Shown: positions 1 to 10,685 of the stretch, piece by piece
Numbering within the stretch: position 1 is the stretch's first letter
Layout of the letters: every line of letters begins with the position of its first letter
Assembly (NCBI GenBank): GCA_900547725.1
Contig: URHR01000001.1
Location: forward strand, 19,894 to 83,893
Source: an uncultured Eubacteriales bacterium
GTDB lineage: Bacteria > Bacillota > Clostridia > Oscillospirales > CAG-272
Length of the DNA stretch: 64,000 nucleotides
Reading direction: 5' to 3'
Position numbers and translations under genes: made by a program
The notes under the pieces: model-generated
The model's input: the letters and a program-made list of their open reading frames with translations, nothing else
Database searches by the model: none
What the model was told of the DNA's origin: nothing

Positions 1-1373
1 TCATGCCACGGATGCTTGGAGACGGAAAGCGCGCCGTCCTTGACTTCATACGCCCATTTGTCCTTGCACTTGTCGGTCGGGGTGATCGTTTGCGTAATGC
101 CCGCTTCGGCAGGGGTTGTCACACTTTCGAAATCCTGACTCCAGACAGTGGTCAGCTTGGTCGGCAGGCGCGGGGTGTCGTCCCCGCCCTCTTCGTAAGT
201 GCCCTTTTCGATCGCGTCGAGCATTCCGCCCAACAGCTCGGCGTATTCTCTGTGTTCCGCCTCGGTGGGATGGTTGCCGCCCGCCGCCTGATCCGCGATG
301 TACACATAGTATTTCTCCGCCGCACCGCCAAGCTCATGCGTTACGCGCTTGATGATGTCGTTGTACTCGGTTTTCATCATACCGCCAACCAGAACGATGC
401 GGCAGTCCGCGCCGTTCTTCTCGCGCACCACGGCAACGAACGCCTTCAGCTTTGCCTCAAAGTCTGCGGCGGAAAGATTCTGAAACGCATCGTTTGTTCC
501 GACATTGAGAATCGAATAGTCCGCCTTCCGCGCAAAGCCGTACTCGGTTTTCATCGAGCGGTTGGGGCTTGCGTACTTGTAGCCCGCGAAAATGCCCGGA
601 TTTCCGACCGTCAGGCCCTGTCCCGAAAGCGCCATGACCGAAAGATCTGCGCCCATCGCCTCGGCGATCAGATAGGGGTATGCCATCGTTGCGTCCTGAT
701 CGCTGTAAGCGCCCTTGTGGTCGCCGATCACGCCCCAACCGCAGCAGATGCTGTCGCCGACGAATTCCAGAAGCAGGTTCTTCGCCGCAGGCGCGGTCTC
801 GGCAACCGTTCCGTCAAAGGACACGCTCTTGAGCATCGTGTTCGCCAGCGTGTAGCCCGTGACCTTGACCAAGCGGACGGTATGCGTGCCTTCGGGCAGA
901 TTCTTCAGGGTGATGGTCGCGTCACCCTTTTTCACTTCGTAGTAAGCGCTCTCGCCGTTGATGTATGCCGCGCCGTCCACATATGCGCGGAAGAAGCAGC
1001 CTTCCTTTCCCGCGCCCATATTGGTGGTGACCGAGAGGGCAAAGGTAATATCGCCCTTTCCGGTTGCAACAAACTCAATGCCCGACGCGCTCCAGTCGCA
1101 GGGAATGCCGTCCGCCATTGCTTCCATACGGGGGTCAAGCTTCTTCACCCACGCGCTGCTCCCGTTCAGTGCAAAGACGGTTCTGTCATCGGGCGTTTCG
1201 GGGTTATCCGGCGTGTTCGACGACCCGGGCGTTTTGGTTGTTCCGTCCGCCTTCTGCGCCTCGGTTGTGGAGCGCGCGGAAGTGCCCGGGTTTTTGGAGG
1301 GGTCGTTCGTTGCGCAGGATGCGAAAGGCACTGCCATGGCAAGCGCCAGTAAAATAGCCGCTACTCGTTTCAT
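1..1373 (-). CDS. Lipoprotein, CE2-like SGNH/GDSL carbohydrate esterase with an extra C-terminal lectin-like domain (3' end runs off the left edge)
   Basis: Absent from the ORF track because there is no stop in the window. My own minus-strand translation from the ATG at 1373 gives MKRVAAILLALAMAVPFASC (lipobox). Later motifs are LLEFVGDSICCGWG (GDS block), ILNVGTNDA and AAGGNHP (His block), and the sequence ends KWAYEVKDGALSVSKHPWH at the edge. RBS AAGGAGAG lies upstream. Confidence 0.75.
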   Translation of the reverse strand, partial: MKRVAAILLALAMAVPFASCATNDPSKNPGTSARSTTEAQKADGTTKTPGSSNTPDNPETPDDRTVFALNGSSAWVKKLDPRMEAMADGIPCDWSASGIEFVATGKGDITFALSVTTNMGAGKEGCFFRAYVDGAAYINGESAYYEVKKGDATITLKNLPEGTHTVRLVKVTGYTLANTMLKSVSFDGTVAETAPAAKNLLLEFVGDSICCGWGVIGDHKGAYSDQDATMAYPYLIAEAMGADLSVMALSGQGLTVGNPGIFAGYKYASPNRSMKTEYGFARKADYSILNVGTNDAFQNLSAADFEAKLKAFVAVVREKNGADCRIVLVGGMMKTEYNDIIKRVTHELGGAAEKYYVYIADQAAGGNHPTEAEHREYAELLGGMLDAIEKGTYEEGGDDTPRLPTKLTTVWSQDFESVTTPAEAGITQTITPTDKCKDKWAYEVKDGALSVSKHPWH

Positions 1374-1394
1374 AGAACTCTCCTTATCGGTTTA

Positions 1395-2573
1395 TCAGTT
1401 TTTGATGGTGAGAAGTCTCAGGTTGTCGATGGTCATTGCGGTGTTCTGCGCCCAAAGAACGATTGCGCTGTTCCCGGTCACATTGAAGGCCTTATCAAAG
1501 GTATAAGAGGAACAATATACTCCGTTGGCAAAGACAGTCGTCCGGCATCCTTCTTCGGTGCTCTCTACAAGGATAGAAAGACGGAAGGTTGCCTTTGCTG
1601 CATCCACATTCAGGAACTCTTTGCGGATGGATTTCTCGGTCTGCTTCGGCTCAAAGTCAATATAGTTCGTCACAACCGGCTTGGTAATCGCACCGCTTCC
1701 CCAACCGTTTCCGAGGTTCTGCCGCAAAGCAATTGCCAGAGCGCCGGCCTGATTGTTGTCACGATCGGTTGCGGAAAGCGCATTATCCCCGTTGAGAAGC
1801 AGGCAAAATACCGCCAATTCGTTGATGGTCAGATCCATTTCCAGAAGATAGGTTTTCGCCGCCTTCAACGTATTGGCATCCGCCAGAGTGAGATAGTAAT
1901 CCGCATTCTCATGCCAACCGTGCTTCGGAACTGACAACTTGCCGTCAACCACTTTGACATCCCAACCGCCGCATTTCGATGTCGCGGCAATCGTTTTTGT
2001 AATTCCCGCTTCATCCGGCGTTGCCGCGCTGTCAAAATTCTGACTCAAAGCCACTTCGGCAAACACGCCGTTCCGGTCAACCGCCATTGTCACAGGCGAG
2101 GAGACAACCGTCTCTCCGTCCTTGACGTAGACGGTAACCGAGAAGGTGACCGTCAGGTTGGACGGAACGCCCTTGATAATCGCCGCAAAAATACCCTTGG
2201 CATTCGCGTCGCCCGCAAGTTCCGCCGCAGTCACGCTCTTGGTCACGCCGTTCACCGTCTCCTTTACAGACGAATAGACCGTCGAGCCCTCCAACCCGTC
2301 TGCCGCGTTGTAAAGAACGCTCTTCTGCTCGCCGTCCGATACAAAGTTCGCGCGGATTTCCATACCGAGCGCCGTGCCGCGCAGGTCGGAAACAGTGGCA
2401 AGGAAACGCACGTCGTGCAGGGTTTCATCGGTTGCGTTGACCGCCGTTTGCACCGAACAAAGCGTCGGCGCTGTCAGGGTCACGGTATCGGTCGGTGCTT
2501 CCTCTGCGTGCGCCGTAACGGCAAACGACAGGAGCATTGCAAGGATCAACAAAATGGGTAGAATTCGTTTCAT
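1395..2573 (-). CDS. Secreted protein with a C-terminal concanavalin/LamG-like domain
   Basis: The ORF 1395..2822 is trimmed to the internal ATG at 2573, which has a GGAGG RBS and a signal peptide (MKRILPILLILAMLLSFAVTAHAEE). Its C-terminal block CGGWDVKVVDGKLSVPKHGWH matches the end of the neighbouring esterase. Confidence 0.7.
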   Translation of the reverse strand: MKRILPILLILAMLLSFAVTAHAEEAPTDTVTLTAPTLCSVQTAVNATDETLHDVRFLATVSDLRGTALGMEIRANFVSDGEQKSVLYNAADGLEGSTVYSSVKETVNGVTKSVTAAELAGDANAKGIFAAIIKGVPSNLTVTFSVTVYVKDGETVVSSPVTMAVDRNGVFAEVALSQNFDSAATPDEAGITKTIAATSKCGGWDVKVVDGKLSVPKHGWHENADYYLTLADANTLKAAKTYLLEMDLTINELAVFCLLLNGDNALSATDRDNNQAGALAIALRQNLGNGWGSGAITKPVVTNYIDFEPKQTEKSIRKEFLNVDAAKATFRLSILVESTEEGCRTTVFANGVYCSSYTFDKAFNVTGNSAIVLWAQNTAMTIDNLRLLTIKN

Positions 2574-2589
2574 CTTCTGATTCCTCCGT

Positions 2590-3510
2590 TTAAGAGTTGA
2601 TTTTGAACCGCAGAACCGTTGGGCAGTGGTCGCTGACCGACAGCAACCGCTCCTCGGCAACAATGCGGTATTCTTCCGCCCGAACGCGGGCGGTGGGATC
2701 GAAAAGGAACGCATGGTCAATTGCATAGGGGTAATGGAGCGCGGGCATTTCGTCTCTCTCCTGCTTCTCCCCTTTTCCCGAGGACGGGTGACAGGATGCG
2801 CGGTTGTCGCGCTCCGCCGCAAGGTCGTGCGTATCGCGAAACCCCAGTTCCGTCAGCCGTTTCGCGCCGCCTGCCGCAATGCCGGAATTGAAATCTCCGC
2901 AGAGCAGAACCGGGCAGGCATACGTTTCTGACAGGGCTGTCAGCTTTGCATGGATGAACTCCGCCTCTTCGGGCTGACACCACGTGCGCAGGCTGAGATG
3001 CGTGTTCGCAACCAACAGTCTGCCGCCATAGCCGCAGGGACTTCCGTTCAGCAGAACCCATGAGAGACTGCGAAACCGCGAACCGGGCTTTGCCGCCTCC
3101 GGGGCTTCCTCGGGGTATGCGTAGCGCGGGGATTCGTTGCAGGCATGGGCGGGATAGGTTTCGCGGCAGTCGTTTTTGGTGTCCACCACCGAAAAACCGT
3201 TTGCCGTGAAGTCCCACCTTCCCGCCGCTTCCTCCCGCCATCGGTCGGGGCGGTACAGAATCGGATTCCAACTCCCGCCCGGCAGCTCGCCGCTCCCCTT
3301 TGCCTCGGTATACGCTTTCCCGAGCGCGGGCAGAAACGCGGTGTCATGCCGATAGTAGTAGTCGAACTCCTGCAGGCAGATGAGATCGGGCGCGCGATCC
3401 GCGAGCCACGCGGCGGCGCGGAGTGCACGTTCCGCAGCGGTCCGATAGACCGCCGTTCCCGGCATCCACGCGTTGAGCAGATTCCAGGATACGCAAAGGG
3501 ATTCGGTCAT
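2590..3510 (-). CDS. Endonuclease/exonuclease/phosphatase (EEP) family protein, no signal peptide
   Basis: EEP motifs are present: SWNLLNAW, LICLQEFD, LCGDFNS, SDHCPTVLRF. The start is chosen at MTESL because its ATG overlaps the stop of the upstream micro-ORF (ATGA). Confidence 0.85.
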   Translation of the reverse strand: MTESLCVSWNLLNAWMPGTAVYRTAAERALRAAAWLADRAPDLICLQEFDYYYRHDTAFLPALGKAYTEAKGSGELPGGSWNPILYRPDRWREEAAGRWDFTANGFSVVDTKNDCRETYPAHACNESPRYAYPEEAPEAAKPGSRFRSLSWVLLNGSPCGYGGRLLVANTHLSLRTWCQPEEAEFIHAKLTALSETYACPVLLCGDFNSGIAAGGAKRLTELGFRDTHDLAAERDNRASCHPSSGKGEKQERDEMPALHYPYAIDHAFLFDPTARVRAEEYRIVAEERLLSVSDHCPTVLRFKINS

Positions 3511-3635
3511 CCGAGTTTCCATGCCGCCTCGCAGTCAAGCGCGTCGCCCTGCGAAAGCGTCAGCGATCCGGTCAGAATATCCTGCGCGGACAGCTCGACG
3601 GATGCCATCATGGGGGTTGTGTACAGCTTTTTCAT
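3507..3635 (-). CDS. Micro-ORF P1 (42 aa), member of the QDILT peptide family
   Basis: Sequence is MKKLYTTPMMASVELSAQDILTGSLTLSQGDALDCEAAWKLG. RBS AAAGGAGAGG lies 5 nt upstream. The stop overlaps the next ATG. Two paralogs sit at 31639..31758 and 41722..41874. Confidence 0.6.
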   Translation of the reverse strand: MKKLYTTPMMASVELSAQDILTGSLTLSQGDALDCEAAWKLG

Positions 3636-3667
3636 AACTACCTCTCCTTTCTTATTTTTCGGGTTCA

Positions 3668-5419
3668 TCAGGTTTTGGTAAATGCAAGTACGGTCGGGCA
3701 ATGGTCGCTCGCGCTCAGAAGGTTCCCGTCGGTCAGAACCAGATACACCTGCGGACGGATTCCTCCGAGCGTGAGAATATGGTCAATGGCATCGCTCTCA
3801 TAGCGCCCGCCCGGCGCTTTTCCGAGCTCGTGCCAAGTTCCCGAATCGTTGCGGACTTTCGCGGTATCGTAGGTGTCCGCAAACCCCTTTGCGCGCAGTT
3901 GCTCCAGAACGCCTTCCGATTGCGTGCGGCGGGAGTTATAATCCCCGCAGAGCAGGGTCACACAGCCCTCGTAGCGCGCGGCAACGCCCCGCATGGTATC
4001 CGAGACCACCGTTGCCTCCGCAGGATGCGTTCCGAGCGGCAGACTGGCATGGAAATTGCCGACCAGATACAGGCTTCCGTCCGAGCGGTCGCGCAGAACC
4101 GCCCAGATCAGCTTGCGGAAGCGGGAAACGCCGTCCGCCGCGCCCGGGTAGGTGGTAGATTCCACCGCGCCTGCGGCTTCCACCAGATCCAGCCATCCCG
4201 ATTCCGCCACCGTGTAACGGTCCTTGCGATAGAGAATCGGATTCCAGATGTTGTTCTGCTCTACGCCGTCCACCGTAACCTCGGCGTAAAGCGCCTTCGT
4301 CTGATCCAGAAGCCCGCGGGGCGCTTTGCGGTAGCTGACGTCGAATTCCTGCAGGCAGATGAAGTCCGGCAGGTAGGAAAGCAGCATCGCCGCCACAGTA
4401 TCGTCGCGCGTTCCGGGCGTTGCGTTGTTCTGCCAGACATTCAACACGTTCAGCGTGATGATAATCCGGTCGCCGCTCCTCTCGGAGACCGTGACAAGAC
4501 CGTCCATCTCCAGTTTTTCGCCGCCCGTGACGTTGGCAAACCGATTTTCGAGATAGAGCCGCAGAAGCGTTTCGGACAGCCCGTCGCCGTATTCCAGACG
4601 GTATTCCGTCCCGCTCCGCGCAATCCGGTAACCGTTCAGTCCCTCGGTCTTGCGGATGACAATGCGGTTCTGCGCCCCGTCGGCAGTGCCGTCGGGTTTC
4701 GCCCGCATCAACATCTCTCCCGAGGTGCTCCGCACGGTTTCAATCAGCTGTGCGGCAAGGTTCGCTTCGGTCTCGGTGCAGTCTACCTGATAGTCCGAGA
4801 CAGGCGCGCCGCCAACGGTCAGCGAACCGATCTGGTAGCTTGCATCATGCGACAGCTTCAGCGCGCTCCGCTTCAGGCAGAGGTTTCCGTCCCGCATCAC
4901 GAGCGCGTCGGTCATCTGCCCGGAGGCAATCCACAGCGCGGAATAGGTATAGGCGGCAAGCGTGATACAGCCCGCGTCGCCCGTTACCCTGAAATCGTTG
5001 TAGCGAAGCCCGCGGAACGAATCCCCCGCATAGCCCGCGACGTTTCCGACCGCAATGACCCCGCCGATGTCGTCGGGAATTCTGCGGTCGCTCCAGACCT
5101 GAAATTCCACGCCGCTCTTCTCTTCCCAATCCGCCGCGAGCGTGCGCGCAATCTTTGCGTAGTCCGCAGAGGAAACGCCGTCGGGCAGATTGGTTTGCTG
5201 ATAAACGAAGGCATAGAGCGCCTTGCCGTCGGCGGTCAGTTCCAGCCGGTCGGCGGAATCGTCCGCAGACGCCGGGGCGGTTTCCGTGTTGCCCGGGGCT
5301 TTGGTCAAAGCTTCCGTCCCGCGCGGCTTCGTTCCGGTCGGCGTACCCGATCCGCCCGGGTTACATCCGACCAGAAGAAACGCAAAAACCAGCAAAAACA
5401 GAAATGTTCTTTTCATCAT
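3668..5419 (-). CDS. Lipoprotein with an N-terminal alpha/beta module and a C-terminal EEP-fold hydrolase domain
   Basis: Lipobox MMKRTFLFLLVFAFLLVGC. EEP motifs are TLNVLNVW, FICLQEFD, LCGDYNS, SDHCPTVLAF. Confidence 0.85.
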   Translation of the reverse strand: MMKRTFLFLLVFAFLLVGCNPGGSGTPTGTKPRGTEALTKAPGNTETAPASADDSADRLELTADGKALYAFVYQQTNLPDGVSSADYAKIARTLAADWEEKSGVEFQVWSDRRIPDDIGGVIAVGNVAGYAGDSFRGLRYNDFRVTGDAGCITLAAYTYSALWIASGQMTDALVMRDGNLCLKRSALKLSHDASYQIGSLTVGGAPVSDYQVDCTETEANLAAQLIETVRSTSGEMLMRAKPDGTADGAQNRIVIRKTEGLNGYRIARSGTEYRLEYGDGLSETLLRLYLENRFANVTGGEKLEMDGLVTVSERSGDRIIITLNVLNVWQNNATPGTRDDTVAAMLLSYLPDFICLQEFDVSYRKAPRGLLDQTKALYAEVTVDGVEQNNIWNPILYRKDRYTVAESGWLDLVEAAGAVESTTYPGAADGVSRFRKLIWAVLRDRSDGSLYLVGNFHASLPLGTHPAEATVVSDTMRGVAARYEGCVTLLCGDYNSRRTQSEGVLEQLRAKGFADTYDTAKVRNDSGTWHELGKAPGGRYESDAIDHILTLGGIRPQVYLVLTDGNLLSASDHCPTVLAFTKT

Positions 5420-5440
5420 AGACGATAAACAGCCCTGCCG

Positions 5441-6931
5441 TTAATAACCGAAGCGCGAGTTGATGTTGTCAATCACTCTCTGCATATTCTCAGCTTTTCC
5501 GTTCAGCGCCGAGTACCAGTCGTCGGACGTGTTGTTGTAAAGCCGCTTGCGGAAGAGCGCGACGGGAGAATCCTCCCAGTCGAATTCGTTGGCAAAAATC
5601 CGCCCCATGTCATAGGTCTTGGAAGAGACGATCAGGTCGAACATCTTTGCGTTGATCGGGTCGTCCTGTCCGCGATACTTCAGAAGATCGTAAACCTTCG
5701 GCTGAACCGTGCGGTAGCCGCCCGAGGCAAGCGCCTCCATGACATACGCCGCGCGCTCGGTATTCTCGCAGTAGGTCGTCATCGACCACATGGTGTACGG
5801 GAAGCCCGAGGTGGAGTAGTACTCCTTCTGTTCGGTGTCCGCCTTCGGGAACGGAAGATAGCCGTAGCGGTCGTTCATCTTCTCGCGGTTCTTCATCAGA
5901 ACCAGAAAACTCGTCCCCGCCAGAACCGCACGCCCTTCGGTGAAGATATCAAAGCTGTAGGAGGTCGGATAGTAGTAATCGTCGCTCTTGAAGCAGGCGA
6001 TCAGGTCGCGCGAAAGATCGTAGATCGCACTTCCGCGGAATTCGGGCGCGATAATCAGCTTGCCTTCGTCATCGGTAGAGAGATACTTCAGACCGTTCGA
6101 CGCCAGAAACGCGTCGCCCACAACGGAATCCATTCCGATGTAACCGAAGGTATCGCCCGGATCTTTGCCCGAGACCTCGCTGTTCGTGTCCAGATAGGCG
6201 TTCCGAGAGATCTTATAGAACTCCTCCATGGTCCACAGCCCCTCCTGCGCCAGTTCGCGCGGGTCGGTCAGCGTGTCGTCCGCGTCGATCTTCGCCATAT
6301 TGACGCTCATGACAAAGGTCTGCAGAATGCCCGCCGCAGAGATGGAACCCGAGGCAAAATAAAGCTTATCGTTGATGGTCGCGCCCTTCAGAAGCGACGC
6401 CGACCACCAAGGCTTGGAGAAATCGAGAATGTTCCCGTATTCGTTCAGGTCGCGCAGGAAGCCGTCCGCCGAGAAGTTCGCCGCGCACTGGCTGTAGCAG
6501 GCGATCAGATCCACGGTCGTTCCCGACCGCAGTGCGTTCTCCACATTGGTAACATACTCGGTTCTGTCCGCGTTTCCGCCGTTGTAGTTCAGGTTGAACT
6601 CCAGAACCACCTTCAGGCGCTCCTGAACCAGCTCGTTGCGCGAAAAGGTCTGCTCGGCAATCTCGTCCCCCTTCGCGTAGTCCGTGTTGAAATCGTAGGA
6701 AGCTTCGCTGTTGCTCCACCCCATTACGCGCACGGTCTCGTTTCCGTAGTTCAGCCCTGCGGGAATCGAATCCCGGATGTACCCGTTTTCGTCATACGGA
6801 TTTTCGGTTGTCCCGGCGTCGGTTGTCGGTCCGTCGGTTTTTCCCGGATTCGGCGGTGCGGTCTTGCTGCCACACCCGAACAGGATTGCGGCAACCAGAA
6901 TCAGACAAAGAAGCAATGCAATTTTTTTCAT
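5441..6931 (-). CDS. Large lipoprotein solute-binding protein (ABC family-1 / LplA-like)
   Basis: ATG at 6931 with a GGGAGG RBS; the track start at 6937 is TTG. Lipobox MKKIALLLCLILVAAILFGC. Blocks FSRNELVQERL, YSQCAANF and FSKPWW are shared with the SBPs at 33974, 41910 and 54117. Confidence 0.85.
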   Translation of the reverse strand: MKKIALLLCLILVAAILFGCGSKTAPPNPGKTDGPTTDAGTTENPYDENGYIRDSIPAGLNYGNETVRVMGWSNSEASYDFNTDYAKGDEIAEQTFSRNELVQERLKVVLEFNLNYNGGNADRTEYVTNVENALRSGTTVDLIACYSQCAANFSADGFLRDLNEYGNILDFSKPWWSASLLKGATINDKLYFASGSISAAGILQTFVMSVNMAKIDADDTLTDPRELAQEGLWTMEEFYKISRNAYLDTNSEVSGKDPGDTFGYIGMDSVVGDAFLASNGLKYLSTDDEGKLIIAPEFRGSAIYDLSRDLIACFKSDDYYYPTSYSFDIFTEGRAVLAGTSFLVLMKNREKMNDRYGYLPFPKADTEQKEYYSTSGFPYTMWSMTTYCENTERAAYVMEALASGGYRTVQPKVYDLLKYRGQDDPINAKMFDLIVSSKTYDMGRIFANEFDWEDSPVALFRKRLYNNTSDDWYSALNGKAENMQRVIDNINSRFGY

Positions 6932-6962: not shown

Positions 6963-6991
6963 ATTATAGCAAATTCGGAACGATTATGCAA
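6963..6991 (-). promoter_or_regulatory. Candidate sigma-A promoter of the SBP/EEP operon
   Basis: On the minus strand the layout is TTGCAT (6991-6986), a 17-nt spacer, then TATAAT (6968-6963), about 30 nt upstream of the ATG. Confidence 0.45.
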
Positions 6992-7027
6992 TCGACAGTT
7001 TTTAGCATTCGGATATACTATTTTTAT
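6990..7027. promoter_or_regulatory. Candidate AraC operator (two half-sites, minus-strand orientation)
   Basis: 7012-7027 read on the minus strand is ATAAAAATAGTATATC, a 15/16 match to the repeat upstream of GH31. A degenerate second copy sits 22 bp closer to the promoter (6990-7005) and overlaps the -35. Confidence 0.4.
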
Positions 7028-7137
7028 ATTTTCCGCCTTCAAAAGCCTGCTTTTCCTCCACAAAAAAATATTACACAAAACCGGCAGGGTTAAATCGTGC
7101 AAAATTACCAAATCGTTTTTTCCTTTCGGTCAAGCCC

Positions 7138-7166
7138 TTGCAAAATGCGCCCCGGTCTGCTATAAT
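7138..7166 (+). promoter_or_regulatory. Candidate promoter of the AraC gene
   Basis: TTGCAA (7138-7143), a 17-nt spacer, then TATAAT (7161-7166). Confidence 0.4.
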
Positions 7167-7199
7167 CAACGCAGAAACAACCGTTACGGGAGGATGTGC

Positions 7200-8108
7200 A
7201 TGATGGAACCGCTCTACGAAAAAGCCAAGCAGAAAGAGGACAAACTGCTGCGTATTTCCTGTATGCTCTTTGACTACAAGAACAACATCCTGCCGCCGTG
7301 GCAGCCGCACCAGCGCGACCCGCGCACCTGCTGTCACCACCATCTGCACGAGAAAATCGAACTGCTGTATTTTATCGAGGGCACTGTCATCTTCCGGGTT
7401 GACGGCACGCCGTATACCTGCAATCCCGGGGATTTTCTGATCGTCAACCCATTCGAGCCGCACAGCGGGGTCACCTCGCCCGAGTGCGACGTCGTGCGTT
7501 ACTATGCCTTCAATCTCGACTGCAGTCTCCTCAAAAAGCTCCCCGTTTCCCGCCTGAGCGAGATTTTCGACCCGCTTCTCTCGGGTAGCGTCGCTTATCC
7601 CCACACCCTGCCCGCAACCGACCCGGCGGGGCGGATCATCCGGGAGGAGCTGGATGCCATTCTCGCAACCCGGCAGACCCGGAACGCCGAACTCTATCAG
7701 ATCGCCTCGGTCTGTCGGATCATCGCCGCGCTCGGAGACCCGGTCGTCTCCCCGTCCGGCGGAGGGACGCGCTCGGCGGATTTCGTGCGGCGCTGTATCC
7801 TTTATATTCAGAGCAACGACCCGCGCGCCGTCTCGCTGGAAGCCATCTCCCGCACATTTTCCTACAACAAAGCCTACTTCACCACGCTTTTCCGCAAGCA
7901 TTTCGGAGTTCCCTTTACCGATTTTCTCAACCGCTACAAGATCGAAAACGCCCATGCGCTCATCCGTAGCGGCAACCGCAACCTCTCCGAGGTCGCTCAG
8001 CTTTCGGGGTTCAATTATTACGCCTACTTCTTCCGGAAATTCAAAGAGGTCAGCGGAATGACCCCGGGCGAATACGTCGCCTACTGCGACCGCCTTGAAA
8101 AGAAATAA
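7200..8108 (+). CDS. AraC/XylS-family transcriptional regulator (cupin plus HTH)
   Basis: C-terminal HTH region FTDFLNRYKIENAHALIRSGNRNLSEVAQLSGFNYYAYFFRKFKEVSGMTPGEY. The start is placed after GGGAGG at 7188-7193 and could be ATG 7194, 7200 or 7203. Confidence 0.9.
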   Translation: MMEPLYEKAKQKEDKLLRISCMLFDYKNNILPPWQPHQRDPRTCCHHHLHEKIELLYFIEGTVIFRVDGTPYTCNPGDFLIVNPFEPHSGVTSPECDVVRYYAFNLDCSLLKKLPVSRLSEIFDPLLSGSVAYPHTLPATDPAGRIIREELDAILATRQTRNAELYQIASVCRIIAALGDPVVSPSGGGTRSADFVRRCILYIQSNDPRAVSLEAISRTFSYNKAYFTTLFRKHFGVPFTDFLNRYKIENAHALIRSGNRNLSEVAQLSGFNYYAYFFRKFKEVSGMTPGEYVAYCDRLEKK

Positions 8109-8141
8109 AAATCGTATATCCCGCTATAAAAATCGTATATC
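8105..8141 (+). promoter_or_regulatory. Perfect 16-bp direct repeat, candidate AraC operator
   Basis: ATAAAAATCGTATATC occurs at 8105-8120 and again at 8126-8141, a 21-bp offset. The proximal copy overlaps the -35 of the GH31 promoter by 2 nt. Confidence 0.5.
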
Positions 8142-8168
8142 GACACGGAATGCCTTTTTCTGTATAAT
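8140..8168 (+). promoter_or_regulatory. Candidate promoter of the GH31 gene
   Basis: TCGACA (8140-8145), a 17-nt spacer, then TATAAT (8163-8168). Confidence 0.55.
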
Positions 8169-8213
8169 AATTGTATAGCAGATCACAGCCCCGCAATCAG
8201 AAAGGAGTCTCCC

Positions 8214-10685
8214 ATGAGGCAATCCCCGATTCTTACCGCACCGAAAAGTCCCGCCACGCAAACCGTTCTTTGGCGGGATTTTCGTGTGACGGTTCTGTCC
8301 GACCGCCTCTTCCGCATTGAAGAGGATTCCACGCGCACCTTCAACGACCGCGCCACCCAGAGCGTTCTGTACCGCAACTTCCCGCCCGTCCCCTTCCGCA
8401 CCGGGGAAGCGGACGCCACGCTGACCGTTGCAACCGACGCCGCCGCGCTCACGCTGTCCGAAGATTCCGCGCAGTGCTTTGTCCTGTCGGGCGGGGTTCG
8501 CCATCCGCTTGACAACAGCGGCAATCTGCTCGGCACTACCCGCACGCTCGACTGTTTTGACGGGGAATACAACATCCGCGACGAGCACCGTCTCACGCTC
8601 TCGCCCGGAGTCTGCTCCCGCGACGGCGTTGCGGTTCTGGACGATACCGCGTCGCTCACGCTTGACGCGGACGGCTGTCCCGACATTGCCTCCCCCGACC
8701 GGAGCGACCGCTATGTCTTTGCCTACGGGCACGACTACCGCGCGGCGGTTCTCGCGCTTTACCGCCTGACGGGACTGCCGCCGATGCTCCCCCGCTTCGC
8801 CTTCGGAAACTGGTGGAGTCGCTACCACGCCTACACCGACCGGGAGTACCTGCATCTGATGGATCGCTTTGCCGCAGCGGACATCCCGCTCACGGTTGCA
8901 ACGCTTGACACCGACTGGCACTATTCCTCGCACCTCGACGAGGAGAAAGGCATTACCGCGAGCGGCAAAAACACCGCCGACCGGGGCTGTCTGGAAACGC
9001 CCGAGAACCGCAGAATCGGTTGGACAGGCTATTCGTGGAATCGCAACCTTTTCCCTGACCCGCACGCCTTTCTGCAGGCACTGCATCGGCGCGGCTTACG
9101 CGTCACGCTGAACCTGCACCCCGCCTCGGGCGTCCGCTATTACGAGGATGCTTACCCCGCCATGGCGGAAGCGATGGGCACAGACCCCAAGACCGAAGCG
9201 GTCATTCCCTTTGACGTGTCCTCCAAGCGTTTTCTGGAGGCTTACTTCCGCATCCTGCATCATCCCCTCGAGCAGGACGGCGTGGACTTCTGGTGGATCG
9301 ACTGGCAACAGGGCACTGCCTCCGCCAAGGACGGACTGGATCCTCTCTGGGCGCTCAACCATTACCATTACCTTGACCATGCCGCGCGCCACCGCCACCC
9401 GCTGATTATGTCCCGCTATGCGGGCATCGGCTCGCACCGCTACCCCATCGGTTTCTCGGGTGACACCACCATTTCGTGGGCAACCCTGCGCCTGATGCCC
9501 TATTTCACCGCAACCGCCGCAAACTGCGGCTACAGTTGGTGGAGTCACGATATCGGCGGGCATCACCTCGGGGAAAAAGATGACGAGCTTTACCTGCGCT
9601 TCCTGCAGTTCGGCGTGTTCAATCCCATCAACCGGATGCATTGCACCGACTCCCCCATGCTCACCAAAGAGCCATGGGCATACGAAAACGGAATCGGTCA
9701 GCTTGCCGCCGACGCCCTGCGCCTGCGCCACCGCATGATTCCCTATCTCTATTCCTGCAATCACCGCACCGCAACCGAGGGGCTTGCGCTCTGCGAGCCG
9801 CTCTACTACCAATACCCCGAATGCGGGGAAAGCTACCGTTACCCGAACGAATACCGCTTCGGTCAGCAGTTTCTGGTCGCACCGGTCACCGAGCACAGCC
9901 GCAGAAACGGATTGAGCGAAACGCCCGTCTGGTTGCCGGAGGGAATCTGGACAGACTTCTTCACGGGGGACGTCTACCGCGTCGGCAAAGGCGGAAAAGA
10001 ATTTGTCGCAATCCGCCCGACCGACAGCATCCCCGTTTTCGCCGAAGCGGGGGCGATCATGGTCTGCTCGGGCGATCCGGGAAACGCCTGCGGCAACCCG
10101 CACGCGTTGGAAGCGACCGTTTGGAACGGGAACGGCGGATTCCGCCTGTATGAGGATTGCGAGGACGGTGCCGAGTGCCTGACGGTCATCGGGACATCCT
10201 ACGACGCGCAGACGGGCACGCAGACCGTGACAATCCGCACCGAGGGTGACCGAAGCGTCCTCCCTCCCGACCGCCGGCTGACCATCCGCTTCCCGAATAT
10301 CGTCTCCCGCCACCCCGCCGATGAACTGCTTGCCCCGCAAACGGGCGATGTGACCGTCGCGGTCGAGCGAAACGGACAGAACACCGCCTTCGAAGCAGAT
10401 ACCTACGCAGAAGCCTCGGTCACGCTGACCGAATATGACCCTGCCGCGACCTATACCGTCCGCGTCACCGCACCTGCCGTGGATATTCTGACCGAGAAGA
10501 AACGCGAGGTCATCGCAAAACTGCAAAAAACGCAGGCAACCTTCTCTGTCCGCAGGAAAGTTGCCGAAAAGGTGCAGACCGCAGAGAACATCGACTGTCT
10601 GCAGGGACGGATTCTGCTTTCCGACCTCGGCGAGCAGGAAAAGAAACGCCTGTGCGAAACGCTCTTCCCGGACGAAGCCACATAA
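8214..10685 (+). CDS. Glycoside hydrolase family 31 (alpha-glycosidase), cytoplasmic
   Basis: Motifs FGNWWSRYHAYT, VDFWWIDWQQG, GFSGDTTISW, WWSHDIGGH. RBS AAAGGAG. No signal peptide. Confidence 0.9.
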   Translation: MRQSPILTAPKSPATQTVLWRDFRVTVLSDRLFRIEEDSTRTFNDRATQSVLYRNFPPVPFRTGEADATLTVATDAAALTLSEDSAQCFVLSGGVRHPLDNSGNLLGTTRTLDCFDGEYNIRDEHRLTLSPGVCSRDGVAVLDDTASLTLDADGCPDIASPDRSDRYVFAYGHDYRAAVLALYRLTGLPPMLPRFAFGNWWSRYHAYTDREYLHLMDRFAAADIPLTVATLDTDWHYSSHLDEEKGITASGKNTADRGCLETPENRRIGWTGYSWNRNLFPDPHAFLQALHRRGLRVTLNLHPASGVRYYEDAYPAMAEAMGTDPKTEAVIPFDVSSKRFLEAYFRILHHPLEQDGVDFWWIDWQQGTASAKDGLDPLWALNHYHYLDHAARHRHPLIMSRYAGIGSHRYPIGFSGDTTISWATLRLMPYFTATAANCGYSWWSHDIGGHHLGEKDDELYLRFLQFGVFNPINRMHCTDSPMLTKEPWAYENGIGQLAADALRLRHRMIPYLYSCNHRTATEGLALCEPLYYQYPECGESYRYPNEYRFGQQFLVAPVTEHSRRNGLSETPVWLPEGIWTDFFTGDVYRVGKGGKEFVAIRPTDSIPVFAEAGAIMVCSGDPGNACGNPHALEATVWNGNGGFRLYEDCEDGAECLTVIGTSYDAQTGTQTVTIRTEGDRSVLPPDRRLTIRFPNIVSRHPADELLAPQTGDVTVAVERNGQNTAFEADTYAEASVTLTEYDPAATYTVRVTAPAVDILTEKKREVIAKLQKTQATFSVRRKVAEKVQTAENIDCLQGRILLSDLGEQEKKRLCETLFPDEAT

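What the first reader, a model, noticed from the sequence alone, without database searches (positions are those of the whole stretch)
6990..8168. Shared 16-bp operator motif links the AraC regulator to both flanking promoters
ATAAAAATCGTATATC occurs twice as a perfect direct repeat (8105-8120 and 8126-8141). The offset is 21 bp, two helical turns, and the proximal copy overlaps a good -35/-10 pair (TCGACA-17-TATAAT) in front of GH31. A 15/16 match (ATAAAAATAGTATATC on the minus strand, 7027-7012) lies upstream of the divergent SBP/EEP operon. It is followed 22 bp later by a degenerate copy that overlaps the operon's -35 (TTGCAT-17-TATAAT). Tandem direct half-sites with about 21-bp phasing abutting the -35 are the classic arrangement of AraC at araI1-araI2. 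This predicts that the regulator at 7200-8108 activates both transcription units and defines the cassette regulon.
Basis: partly seen in the sequence, partly recalled or inferred. Interest (0 to 1): 0.6.

Follow-up and report, generated by a model that had tools for sequence, protein, structure and literature searches.

The report
AraC-type regulator's conserved tandem operators
The repeated 16-letter DNA word is real and is almost certainly the docking site of the neighbouring AraC-type sugar regulator at the two promoters beside its gene; this is an ordinary kind of bacterial switch, found here in an unstudied gut bacterium.

Summary
ATAAAAATCGTATATC lies at 8105-8120 and 8126-8141 (+), and a 15/16 copy lies at 7012-7027 (-). 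These are the only matches with up to 2 mismatches in the 2.2-Mb genome. A genome-wide scan for phased pairs finds only the two cassette promoters.

The window's cassette recurs in five near-identical loci (regulators 88-100% identical). In six further loci whose regulators are 40-73% identical, the same tandem pair also precedes the GH31 orthologue. The pair has 21-22 bp phasing. Positions 15-16 of the proximal copy are the first two bases of the -35, followed by 17 nt and TATAAT. The flanks and spacers have diverged. The divergent lipoprotein promoter uses the same register with a weak proximal copy.

Both recognition helices of the regulator are invariant across these orthologues. GH31 homologues in genomes without the regulator lack the motif.

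The best reading is an AraC/XylS-type class II operator set forming a purely local regulon: GH31 plus a lipoprotein-EEP-EEP-X-esterase operon. Binding and the sign of regulation are inferred, not shown. The near-consensus GH31 promoter keeps repression possible.

The "SBP" label is not supported. This is a new member of a known kind, of modest interest.

The parts
8105..8120 (+). Distal operator half-site of the GH31 promoter (ATAAAAATCGTATATC). It contains the regulator gene's TAA stop codon (8106-8108).
   Evidence: Conserved at this position in 7 independent loci.
8126..8141 (+). Proximal operator half-site of the GH31 promoter. Its positions 15-16 are the first two bases of the -35.
8140..8168 (+). 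Predicted GH31 promoter: TCGACA (8140-8145), 17 nt, TATAAT (8163-8168). The transcription start is predicted near 8175 and has not been mapped.
   Evidence: 11/12 match, best in the region. The -10 is invariant and 3 of the 4 -35 bases outside the half-site are invariant in 7 loci.
7012..7027 (-). Distal operator half-site of the divergent lipoprotein promoter (ATAAAAATAGTATATC, 15/16).
   Evidence: Orthologous sites in L011, L019, L014 and L015.
6990..7005 (-). Degenerate proximal half-site (CTAAAAACTGTCGATT; 10/16, 9.6 bits), 22 bp from the distal copy. Its last two bases start the -35.
   Evidence: The TGTCGATTG block is conserved in L011, L019 and L014.
6963..6991 (-). Predicted lipoprotein-operon promoter: TTGCAT (6991-6986), 17 nt, TATAAT (6968-6963).
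   Evidence: The -35 matches only 3/6, so one search does not list it.
7138..7166 (+). Predicted promoter of the regulator gene itself: TTGCAA, 17 nt, TATAAT, with TG before the -10. No strong operator copy is in a promoter-proximal position.
7200..8108 (+). AraC/XylS-family regulator of 302 aa, with an N-terminal cupin sensor domain and a C-terminal double helix-turn-helix.
   Evidence: Pfam HTH_18 6.8e-16 and AraC_binding 5.5e-12. PDB profile hits to AraC-family DNA-binding domains. Orthologue alignment A3.
8214..10685 (+). GH31 glycoside hydrolase of the GH31_u1 group, a probable cytoplasmic alpha-1,3-glucosidase. Regulated target 1.
   Evidence: Pfam. 7WJ9 at E 7.7e-174 with the WIDW and FSGD catalytic motifs kept. 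PMC9061262.
5441..6931 (-). First gene of regulated target 2.
   Evidence: No Pfam, NCBIfam or PDB hit. Orthologues are divergent from GH31 in L013, L014, L015 and L018.
3668..5419 (-). EEP-family (endonuclease/exonuclease/phosphatase) protein of 583 aa, 21 nt downstream of the lipoprotein gene.
   Evidence: Synteny conserved in L019, L011, L055 and L056.
2590..3522 (-). Second EEP-family protein, 310 aa.
   Evidence: Synteny.
1..2573 (-). Co-directional distal genes: an unknown protein (about 1398-2573) and a GDSL-type esterase (from 1373, running off the window's left edge). Probably the end of the same operon.
   Evidence: tblastn synteny with L055 and L056. Pfam on the L056 homologues.

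Best explanation
The 16-bp words are the operator half-sites of the AraC/XylS-family regulator encoded at 7200-8108.

Two regulator DNA-binding domains bind head-to-tail to a distal and a proximal half-site 21-22 bp apart, that is, on the same face of the helix. Each half-site has an A-rich box (positions 3-8, AAAAAT) and a GTATATC box (positions 10-16). One box would be read by each of the two helix-turn-helix motifs.

The proximal half-site ends two bases inside the -35 hexamer. This places the bound protein next to sigma region 4, which is class II activation as at araI1-I2 or XylS/Pm. When the cupin domain binds its sugar-derived ligand, the regulator switches on two units:
- the GH31 gene, a probable alpha-1,3-glucosidase;
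- the divergent operon lipoprotein-EEP-EEP-unknown-GDSL esterase.

The regulator gene has its own constitutive-looking promoter. The regulon is local, comprising these two promoters only.

Shown here: the sites, their uniqueness in the genome, their conserved register relative to predicted promoters, and their co-occurrence with the regulator. Inferred: that this protein binds them, that the effect is activation, and what the inducer is.
For: 1. The sites are unique. There are 3 sites with up to 2 mismatches in 2.2 Mb, all within 1.1 kb around the regulator gene. The top three PWM scores are 27-29 bits and the next is 21.9 bits, with no promoter layout. Only two phased pairs exist genome-wide.

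2. The sites are a phylogenetic footprint. In 7 independent loci (the window plus six with regulators 40-73% identical), the GH31 orthologue (57-89% identical) is preceded by distal 16-mer, 5-6 nt, proximal 16-mer overlapping the -35, 17 nt, TATAAT. The mean majority fraction is 0.90 and 0.85 in the two half-sites, 0.93 in the four -35 bases outside the proximal half-site and 1.00 in the -10. It is 0.48-0.60 in the flanks and spacers. The arrangement follows GH31 even where GH31 is convergent to the regulator gene (L013, L014, L015, L018).

3. The lipoprotein promoter has the same register in the window, L011, L019 and L014.

4. Both predicted recognition helices (SYNKAYFTT 221-229 and GFNYYAYFF 270-278) are invariant across orthologues, while the rest of the protein falls to 40% identity.

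5. The motif depends on the regulator. Five GH31_u1 homologues in related genomes without the regulator have no site of 15 bits or more.

6. The protein belongs to the AraC family.

7. There is family precedent. XylS binds two 15-bp direct repeats, each made of two boxes (PMC5481539). MtlR uses two 15-bp blocks 22 bp apart just upstream of the -35 (PMC4514859). In Firmicutes regulon reconstructions, AraC-family tandem repeats with 21-bp periodicity upstream of promoter elements are read as activator sites (PMC8579813).
Against: The GH31 promoter is near consensus (TCGACA-17-TATAAT, 11/12) in every locus. That is unusual for a strictly activator-dependent promoter and would suit repression.

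Both GH31 half-sites in the window are perfect copies. In the MtlR system, making the proximal block identical to the distal one made the promoter constitutive. Inducer dependence here is therefore uncertain.

The proximal lipoprotein half-site is weak (9.6 bits), and it is poorly conserved in L013, L015 and L018.

Most of the closest loci (88-100% identical regulators) are too similar to be informative.
Confidence: 0.7

Rival explanations
1. The sites and the protein are the same, but the sign is opposite. The regulator is a repressor, or acts both ways. It sits on the -35 edge of otherwise strong promoters and is released or repositioned by the inducer.
For: P_GH31 is 11/12 to the sigma-70 consensus, with a perfect -10 in all 7 loci. 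It might therefore not need an activator. Both half-sites are perfect in the window. Some AraC-family members repress or act both ways, for example ChbR and AraC itself through looping (general knowledge).
Against: The overlap with the -35 is only 2 bp and leaves GACA free for sigma. Steric repressors usually cover more of the promoter. The site orientation is always co-directional with transcription, and the register is fixed. This is required for class II contact but not for occlusion. P_lipo has a poor -35 at 3/6. Most characterised family members with this layout are activators (PMC8579813).
Confidence: 0.2
2. The motif is bound by a different transcription factor encoded elsewhere, and its nearness to the AraC gene is coincidental.
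For: No direct binding evidence exists. A/T-rich motifs could be read by other proteins.
Against: The motif travels with the regulator orthologue in every locus examined, despite gene rearrangement. It is absent from GH31 homologues where the regulator is absent. Direct repeats with 21-22 bp phasing are typical of the AraC family rather than of LacI, GntR or ROK palindromes. The recognition helices are invariant.
Confidence: 0.05
3. The repeat has no regulatory function. It is a recent 21-bp tandem duplication or a chance A/T-rich similarity.
For: In the window the two GH31 copies are identical, as a fresh duplication would be.
Against: In distant loci the two copies differ from each other yet both keep the invariant positions, and the spacing varies between 21 and 22 bp. 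0 of 100 shuffles reach the observed count. A third copy sits at the other promoter in the same register.
Confidence: 0.03

Closest known systems
AraC at araI1-araI2 (E. coli araBAD promoter)
   Same: Cupin sensor domain plus double-HTH regulator. Two direct-repeat half-sites about 21 bp apart, with the proximal one overlapping the -35. The regulator gene is adjacent to and divergent from a target operon.
   Different: The protein is not an orthologue: the NCBIfam AraC equivalog scores 41 bits against a cut-off of 208. The motif is unrelated. The overlap with the -35 is 2 bp rather than 4 bp (the latter from my own knowledge). No upstream O2-type looping site was identified. The cupin keeps metal-type His/Glu residues. 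The target promoters are near consensus.
XylS at Pm (TOL plasmid) and MtlR at PmtlE (Pseudomonas)
   Same: Two 15-16 bp direct repeats, each made of two short boxes, on the same helical face and immediately upstream of or touching the -35. Two monomers bind and contact RNA polymerase (PMC5481539; PMC4514859, blocks 22 bp apart).
   Different: Different phylum, ligand and motif sequence. Here the two GH31 half-sites are identical, whereas the MtlR and XylS proximal sites are weaker. In these systems binding is shown experimentally; here it is only inferred.
Predicted local AraC-family sugar regulons of Firmicutes (for example PecR, PecR2 and HemR in Caldicellulosiruptor, PMC8579813)
   Same: One-component AraC regulators encoded next to carbohydrate-utilisation genes. 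Tandem-repeat sites with 21-bp periodicity lie upstream of promoter elements. They were inferred by comparative genomics to be activators.
   Different: Different regulator orthologous group, motif and target genes (GH31_u1 plus a lipoprotein/EEP/esterase operon). I found no published motif for this group.
GH31_u1 gene clusters (Lactococcus lactis, Lachnoclostridium phytofermentans; PMC9061262)
   Same: The regulated hydrolase is a close homologue of LlGH31_u1, the nigerooligosaccharide-specific alpha-1,3-glucosidase (E 7.7e-174, catalytic motifs kept).
   Different: The published clusters carry LacI-family regulators and ABC or PTS transporters. This cassette has an AraC-family regulator, no visible transporter, and EEP and esterase genes.

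Membership tests
AraC/XylS family of transcription regulators (the protein) | C-terminal DNA-binding domain of about 100 aa with two helix-turn-helix motifs | tested here: met
   Pfam HTH_18 6.8e-16 (58.8 bits, cut-off 33.6) and HTH_AraC 2.3e-09. Profile hits to the DNA-binding domains of AraC (2K9S), XylR, ToxT, MarA and SoxS.
AraC/XylS family of transcription regulators (the protein) | N-terminal AraC-like cupin ligand-binding domain (sugar-responsive subgroup) | tested here: met
   Pfam AraC_binding 5.5e-12 (46 bits, cut-off 21.1) and Cupin_2 1e-08.
E. coli AraC orthologue (arabinose regulator) | Score above the NCBIfam equivalog cut-off | tested here: not met
   NF007860 scores 41.4 bits against a cut-off of 208. 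No equivalog model is reached.
AraC/XylS class II activator operator (araI1-I2 / Pm type) | Two half-sites in direct-repeat orientation, co-directional with the target gene | tested here: met
   Both promoters in the window and 7 independent GH31 promoters.
AraC/XylS class II activator operator (araI1-I2 / Pm type) | Half-sites about two helical turns apart (about 21 bp) | tested here: met
   21 bp in the window and L019. 22 bp in L012, L013, L014, L015, L017 and L018 and at the lipoprotein promoter.
AraC/XylS class II activator operator (araI1-I2 / Pm type) | Proximal half-site abuts or overlaps the -35 hexamer of the regulated promoter | tested here: inconclusive
   Met for the predicted promoters: a 2-bp overlap at both, conserved in all loci.
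AraC/XylS class II activator operator (araI1-I2 / Pm type) | The regulator binds the half-sites | not testable with these tools
   Support is indirect only: co-occurrence with the regulator and invariant recognition helices.
AraC/XylS class II activator operator (araI1-I2 / Pm type) | Ligand-dependent activation of transcription | not testable with these tools
   No expression data. The near-consensus promoter leaves the sign of regulation open.
GH31_u1 alpha-1,3-glucosidases | Close sequence similarity to LlGH31_u1, with the nucleophile and acid/base Asp retained | tested here: met
   7WJ9 at E 7.7e-174 over residues 22-663. The WIDW and FSGD motifs are aligned and conserved. The function of 7WJ9 is taken from PMC9061262. 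Substrate specificity was not tested.
   No Pfam hit at E up to 0.1, and no NCBIfam or PDB sequence hit. The AF2 model was too poor to judge, with pLDDT 43.
   The cassette and the three paralogue loci inspected carry EEP or other enzyme genes, not permeases. Neighbours at the paralogue loci were judged from ORF lists and N-terminal sequences only.

The most novel reading that the evidence does not exclude
The shared operator functionally links a cytoplasmic GH31_u1 alpha-1,3-glucosidase to a conserved secreted set: an unknown multi-copy lipoprotein, two EEP phosphoesterases, an unknown protein and a GDSL esterase (plus a GDPD in one relative). No transporter is visible.

This could mark an undescribed pathway in gut Clostridia for harvesting alpha-glucosylated, phosphodiester-linked and esterified glycans, for example teichoic-acid-like or other phosphoglycans. 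A metal-containing cupin AraC regulator would sense a breakdown product.
Probability: 0.15. Interest if true: 0.6.

Novelty: new member of a known kind. Interest (0 to 1): 0.32.

Why it matters
The result gives a concrete motif (consensus ATAAAAATCGTATATC, invariant A3-A5 and T11-T15) and a two-promoter regulon. Both belong to an uncharacterised AraC regulator group in uncultured gut Clostridia related to Eubacterium sp. CAG:180.

The practical value is the link it makes. Co-regulation ties a probable nigerooligosaccharide alpha-1,3-glucosidase to a recurrent lipoprotein/EEP/esterase cassette of unknown function. This gives a testable handle on what that cassette degrades and on the inducer.

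As a regulatory mechanism it is textbook AraC/XylS architecture and would not surprise a specialist.

Tried and rejected
- **Loose tandem pattern.** Searching GTATAT-N8-9-AAA-N5-TATATYGAC in 400 genomes of the order returned only the window's own site plus 4 hits. All 4 lie in apparently coding sequence, and none has the regulator or GH31 within the roughly 1.5-kb flanks fetched. The pattern was too loose to be informative.
- **Extra hits in orthologue genomes.** Additional matches with up to 2 mismatches were mostly a near-perfect copy in a sequence block conserved between genomes (apparently coding), or isolated A/T-rich matches. I rejected them as regulon members.
- **Secondary PWM hits in the own genome (15-22 bits).** None has a partner site or promoter layout, so I rejected them.
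- **Autoregulation.** No strong site lies at the regulator's own promoter in distant loci, so autoregulation is not supported. Orphan reverse sites upstream of the gene in L013 and L016 remain unexplained.
- **Third copy at 8164-8179.** It is not conserved and is probably a by-product of the -10 region.
- **Metagenome scan.** A scan for more orthologues returned only close relatives, which carry identical sites.
- **Structure of the lipoprotein.** The AF2 model from a 6-sequence alignment had pLDDT 43, too poor for a fold search.
- **Literature.** Searches for a published motif or regulon of this group found nothing specific.
Full report
**1. Observation**

The region reads exactly as described.
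- ATAAAAATCGTATATC lies at 8105-8120 and again at 8126-8141 on the + strand, 21 bp start to start.
- The minus strand of 7012-7027 reads ATAAAAATAGTATATC (15/16).
- The repeat finder returns the same family, plus a weak third copy at 8164-8179 (13/16) that overlaps the -10.

The proximal GH31 copy ends in TCGACA (8140-8145), followed by 17 nt and TATAAT (8163-8168). This is the best sigma-70-like match between 1 and 11200, at 11 of 12.

On the minus strand the distal copy is followed 22 bp later by CTAAAAACTGTCGATT (7005-6990; 10/16). Its last two bases begin TTGCAT (6991-6986), followed by 17 nt and TATAAT (6968-6963). This leads to a GGGAGG ribosome-binding site and the ATG at 6931. TTGCAT matches the -35 consensus at only 3 of 6 positions, so the consensus scan did not list this promoter.

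**2. More than chance**

- The window has 5 matches with up to 3 mismatches against 0.55 expected, and none of 100 shuffles reaches 5.
- In the whole 2.2-Mb assembly (93.6% complete) only the three cassette sites have up to 2 mismatches. The reversed control pattern has none.
- I built a weight matrix from 18 sites in several genomes. With it the three sites score 27-29 bits. The next best site in the genome scores 21.9 bits.
- None of the secondary hits has a phased partner or a promoter behind it.
- A genome-wide search for same-strand pairs 20-23 bp apart returns exactly two pairs, the GH31 promoter and the lipoprotein promoter.

**3. Genes**

- 7200-8108 encodes a 302-aa AraC/XylS-family protein with a cupin AraC_binding domain and HTH_18. 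Its profile matches the solved DNA-binding domains of AraC, XylR, ToxT, MarA and SoxS. It reaches no NCBIfam equivalog cut-off.
- 8214-10685 is a GH31 enzyme. Its closest solved relative by far is 7WJ9 (E 7.7e-174), with the WIDW nucleophile and FSGD acid/base motifs conserved.
- 7WJ9 is LlGH31_u1, a nigerooligosaccharide-specific alpha-1,3-glucosidase. Its published gene clusters carry LacI regulators and transporters (PMC9061262).
- Divergently lie a 496-aa lipoprotein (5441-6931), two EEP-family proteins (3668-5419 and 2590-3522), an unknown protein and a GDSL-type esterase that runs off the window.

**4. Comparative evidence**

The regulator is rare. It occurs in 3 of 61 relatives and 2 of 401 sampled family members. 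The search for related loci gave 11 loci, with regulator identity from 94% down to 40%.

The very close species (93-94%) keep all three sites unchanged but are too similar overall to be informative. The informative set is L019 (73%), L012 and L017 (46% and 44%), and L013, L014, L015 and L018 (40-44%).

In every one of these loci the GH31 orthologue (57-89% identical) is preceded by the same layout:
- a distal 16-mer;
- 5-6 nt of spacer;
- a proximal 16-mer whose positions 15-16 are the first bases of TCGACA or TTGACG;
- 17 nt, then TATAAT.

In L013, L014, L015 and L018 the GH31 gene is convergent to the regulator gene. The operator pair has moved with the GH31 promoter, not with the regulator gene.

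The anchored alignment of 7 independent loci gives these mean majority fractions:

| Segment | Mean majority fraction |
|---|---|
| Distal half-site | 0.90 |
| Proximal half-site | 0.85 |
| -35 bases outside the proximal half-site (4 columns) | 0.93 |
| -10 | 1.00 |
| 5' flank, the two spacers and the downstream sequence | 0.48-0.60 |

The invariant positions are A4, A5 and T11-A12-T13-A14-T15, and A3 is invariant but for one site. This suggests an A-rich box and a (G)TATAT(C) box, as expected for a protein that inserts two recognition helices.

The lipoprotein gene is also conserved, at 40-84% identity. It is divergent from GH31 in L013, L014, L015 and L018. Its promoter keeps the distal site and the weak proximal block TGTCGATTG in the same register in the window, L011, L019 and L014. 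The site is weaker in L013, L015 and L018.

**5. Link to the regulator**

- In the alignment of ten orthologues, both predicted recognition helices (SYNKAYFTT 221-229 and GFNYYAYFF 270-278) are invariant. Overall identity meanwhile falls to 40%. This fits an unchanged DNA motif.
- Five GH31_u1 homologues (39-42% identical) occur in related genomes that lack the regulator orthologue. None has a site of 15 bits or more nearby. The motif therefore tracks the regulator, not the enzyme.
- Metagenome contigs with 88-100% identical regulators carry identical sites.

**6. Mechanism**

The layout is that of AraC/XylS class II activators.
- XylS binds two 15-bp direct repeats, each made of two boxes, and contacts RNA polymerase (PMC5481539).
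- MtlR uses two 15-bp blocks 22 bp apart, directly upstream of the -35 (PMC4514859).
- In Firmicutes regulon reconstructions, AraC-family tandem repeats with 21-bp periodicity upstream of promoter elements are read as activator sites (PMC8579813).

I therefore propose that two DNA-binding domains occupy the half-sites on one helical face. The promoter-proximal one touches sigma region 4, and ligand binding to the cupin domain enables activation of both transcription units.

Activation is an inference. The GH31 promoter is near consensus in all loci, and both of its half-sites are perfect in the window. In the MtlR system such a change made the promoter constitutive.

Repression, or a dual role, is the main rival, at about 20%. 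Three points argue against it:
- only 2 bp of the -35 are covered;
- orientation and register are fixed relative to transcription;
- the lipoprotein promoter has a poor -35.

The regulator gene has its own good promoter (TTGCAA-17-TATAAT, 7138-7166). No strong site lies in a promoter-proximal position there, in the window or in distant loci. I see no evidence for autoregulation.

In all co-directional loci the regulator's stop codon lies inside the distal half-site. I saw no convincing terminator between the two genes, so read-through into GH31 is likely.

**7.

The "SBP" label is not supported.
- The lipoprotein has no Pfam, NCBIfam or PDB match.
- It belongs to a family with about 18 paralogues in this genome and about 30 in others.
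- The three paralogue loci I inspected show no permease-sized neighbours. At least one repeats the lipoprotein, large lipoprotein, small signal-less protein order of the cassette (judged from ORF lists only).
- An AF2 model from six sequences was too poor to judge the fold.

The regulated operon is lipoprotein, EEP, EEP, unknown protein and GDSL esterase. This order is conserved in two distant genomes.

**8. Novelty and verdict**

I found no published motif or regulon for this regulator group. The architecture itself is textbook. Other notes from this scan describe the same kind of operator next to other AraC-type regulators.

This is a well-supported new member of a known kind. Its main use is as a handle on the unknown lipoprotein/EEP/esterase cassette and on the inducer of a GH31_u1 enzyme.

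My confidence that these are operators of the adjacent regulator forming a local two-promoter regulon is about 0.85-0.9. With activation included it is about 0.7.

Noticed in passing
window 7329-7466 (regulator residues 44-88): The cupin domain keeps an invariant CCH-x-H-x-H-x3-E ... H motif (C44, C45, H46, H48, H50, E54, H88). This is the canonical metal-binding cupin signature. The profile weakly matches metal cupins such as quercetin 2,3-dioxygenase YxaG and plu4264. To my knowledge E. coli AraC has no such metal site, so the sensor may be metal-dependent.
   Followed up: partly
window 5441-6931 (-), and paralogues in G000 (C3:4962-6428, C19:24513-26069, C50:4851-6368): The roughly 500-aa lipoprotein belongs to a large family with no match in Pfam, NCBIfam or PDB sequences. 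There are about 18 copies here and about 30 in G462 and G465. At the three paralogue loci inspected the neighbours are large lipoproteins or other enzyme-sized genes, not permease-sized genes. This was judged from ORF lists only, not domain-checked.
   Followed up: partly
window 1-6931 (-); L055 123-7488; L056 709-11388: The gene order lipoprotein, EEP (about 580 aa), EEP (about 300 aa), unknown (400-700 aa), GDSL esterase is conserved between genomes whose regulators are only 40-44% identical. L056 adds a glycerophosphodiester phosphodiesterase. This suggests an unknown extracellular phosphoester/ester-cleaving pathway co-regulated with an alpha-1,3-glucosidase.
   Followed up: partly
L013 743-758 (-); L016 3711-3726 (-) and 3830-3845 (-): Strong reverse-oriented copies of the motif lie 150-290 bp upstream of the regulator gene in two distant loci, with no divergent gene behind them. 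They could be relics of a lost lipoprotein promoter or remote sites acting on the regulator's own promoter. This is unexplained.
   Followed up: partly
window 8106-8108; L019, L012, L017: In every locus where GH31 follows the regulator gene, the regulator's TAA stop codon lies inside the distal half-site. I saw no convincing terminator between the two genes. Read-through from the regulator promoter into GH31 is therefore likely, and a bound regulator sits on the 3' end of its own gene.
   Followed up: no
L020 1501-1516, L021 1431-1446, L023 1501-1516, L031 1501-1516: A near-perfect copy of the 16-mer sits in a sequence block that is conserved between several other genomes (tataacattcaagctcgg...ATAAAAATCGTATAT...gattatacat). 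It appears to be coding and is probably a coincidence of sequence. It inflates motif counts in those genomes.
   Followed up: partly
L006 / alignment A2 columns 134-141 (equivalent to window 8171-8178): One sister species (G031) carries an 8-bp tandem duplication, TGTATAGC, just downstream of the GH31 -10, and another (G016) has a different insertion there. The weak third motif copy is therefore not under visible constraint. In G031 the GH31 protein is 99% identical to the window's, while the regulator is only 93% identical.
   Followed up: no
window 7080-7125: A block upstream of the regulator's own promoter is conserved in L011 and L019. It carries two AAATCG cores 20 bp apart (ttAAATCGtgcaaaattaccAAATCGtt). 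These are only 8-10/16 matches to the operator motif and are not seen in distant loci. Their significance is unclear.
   Followed up: partly
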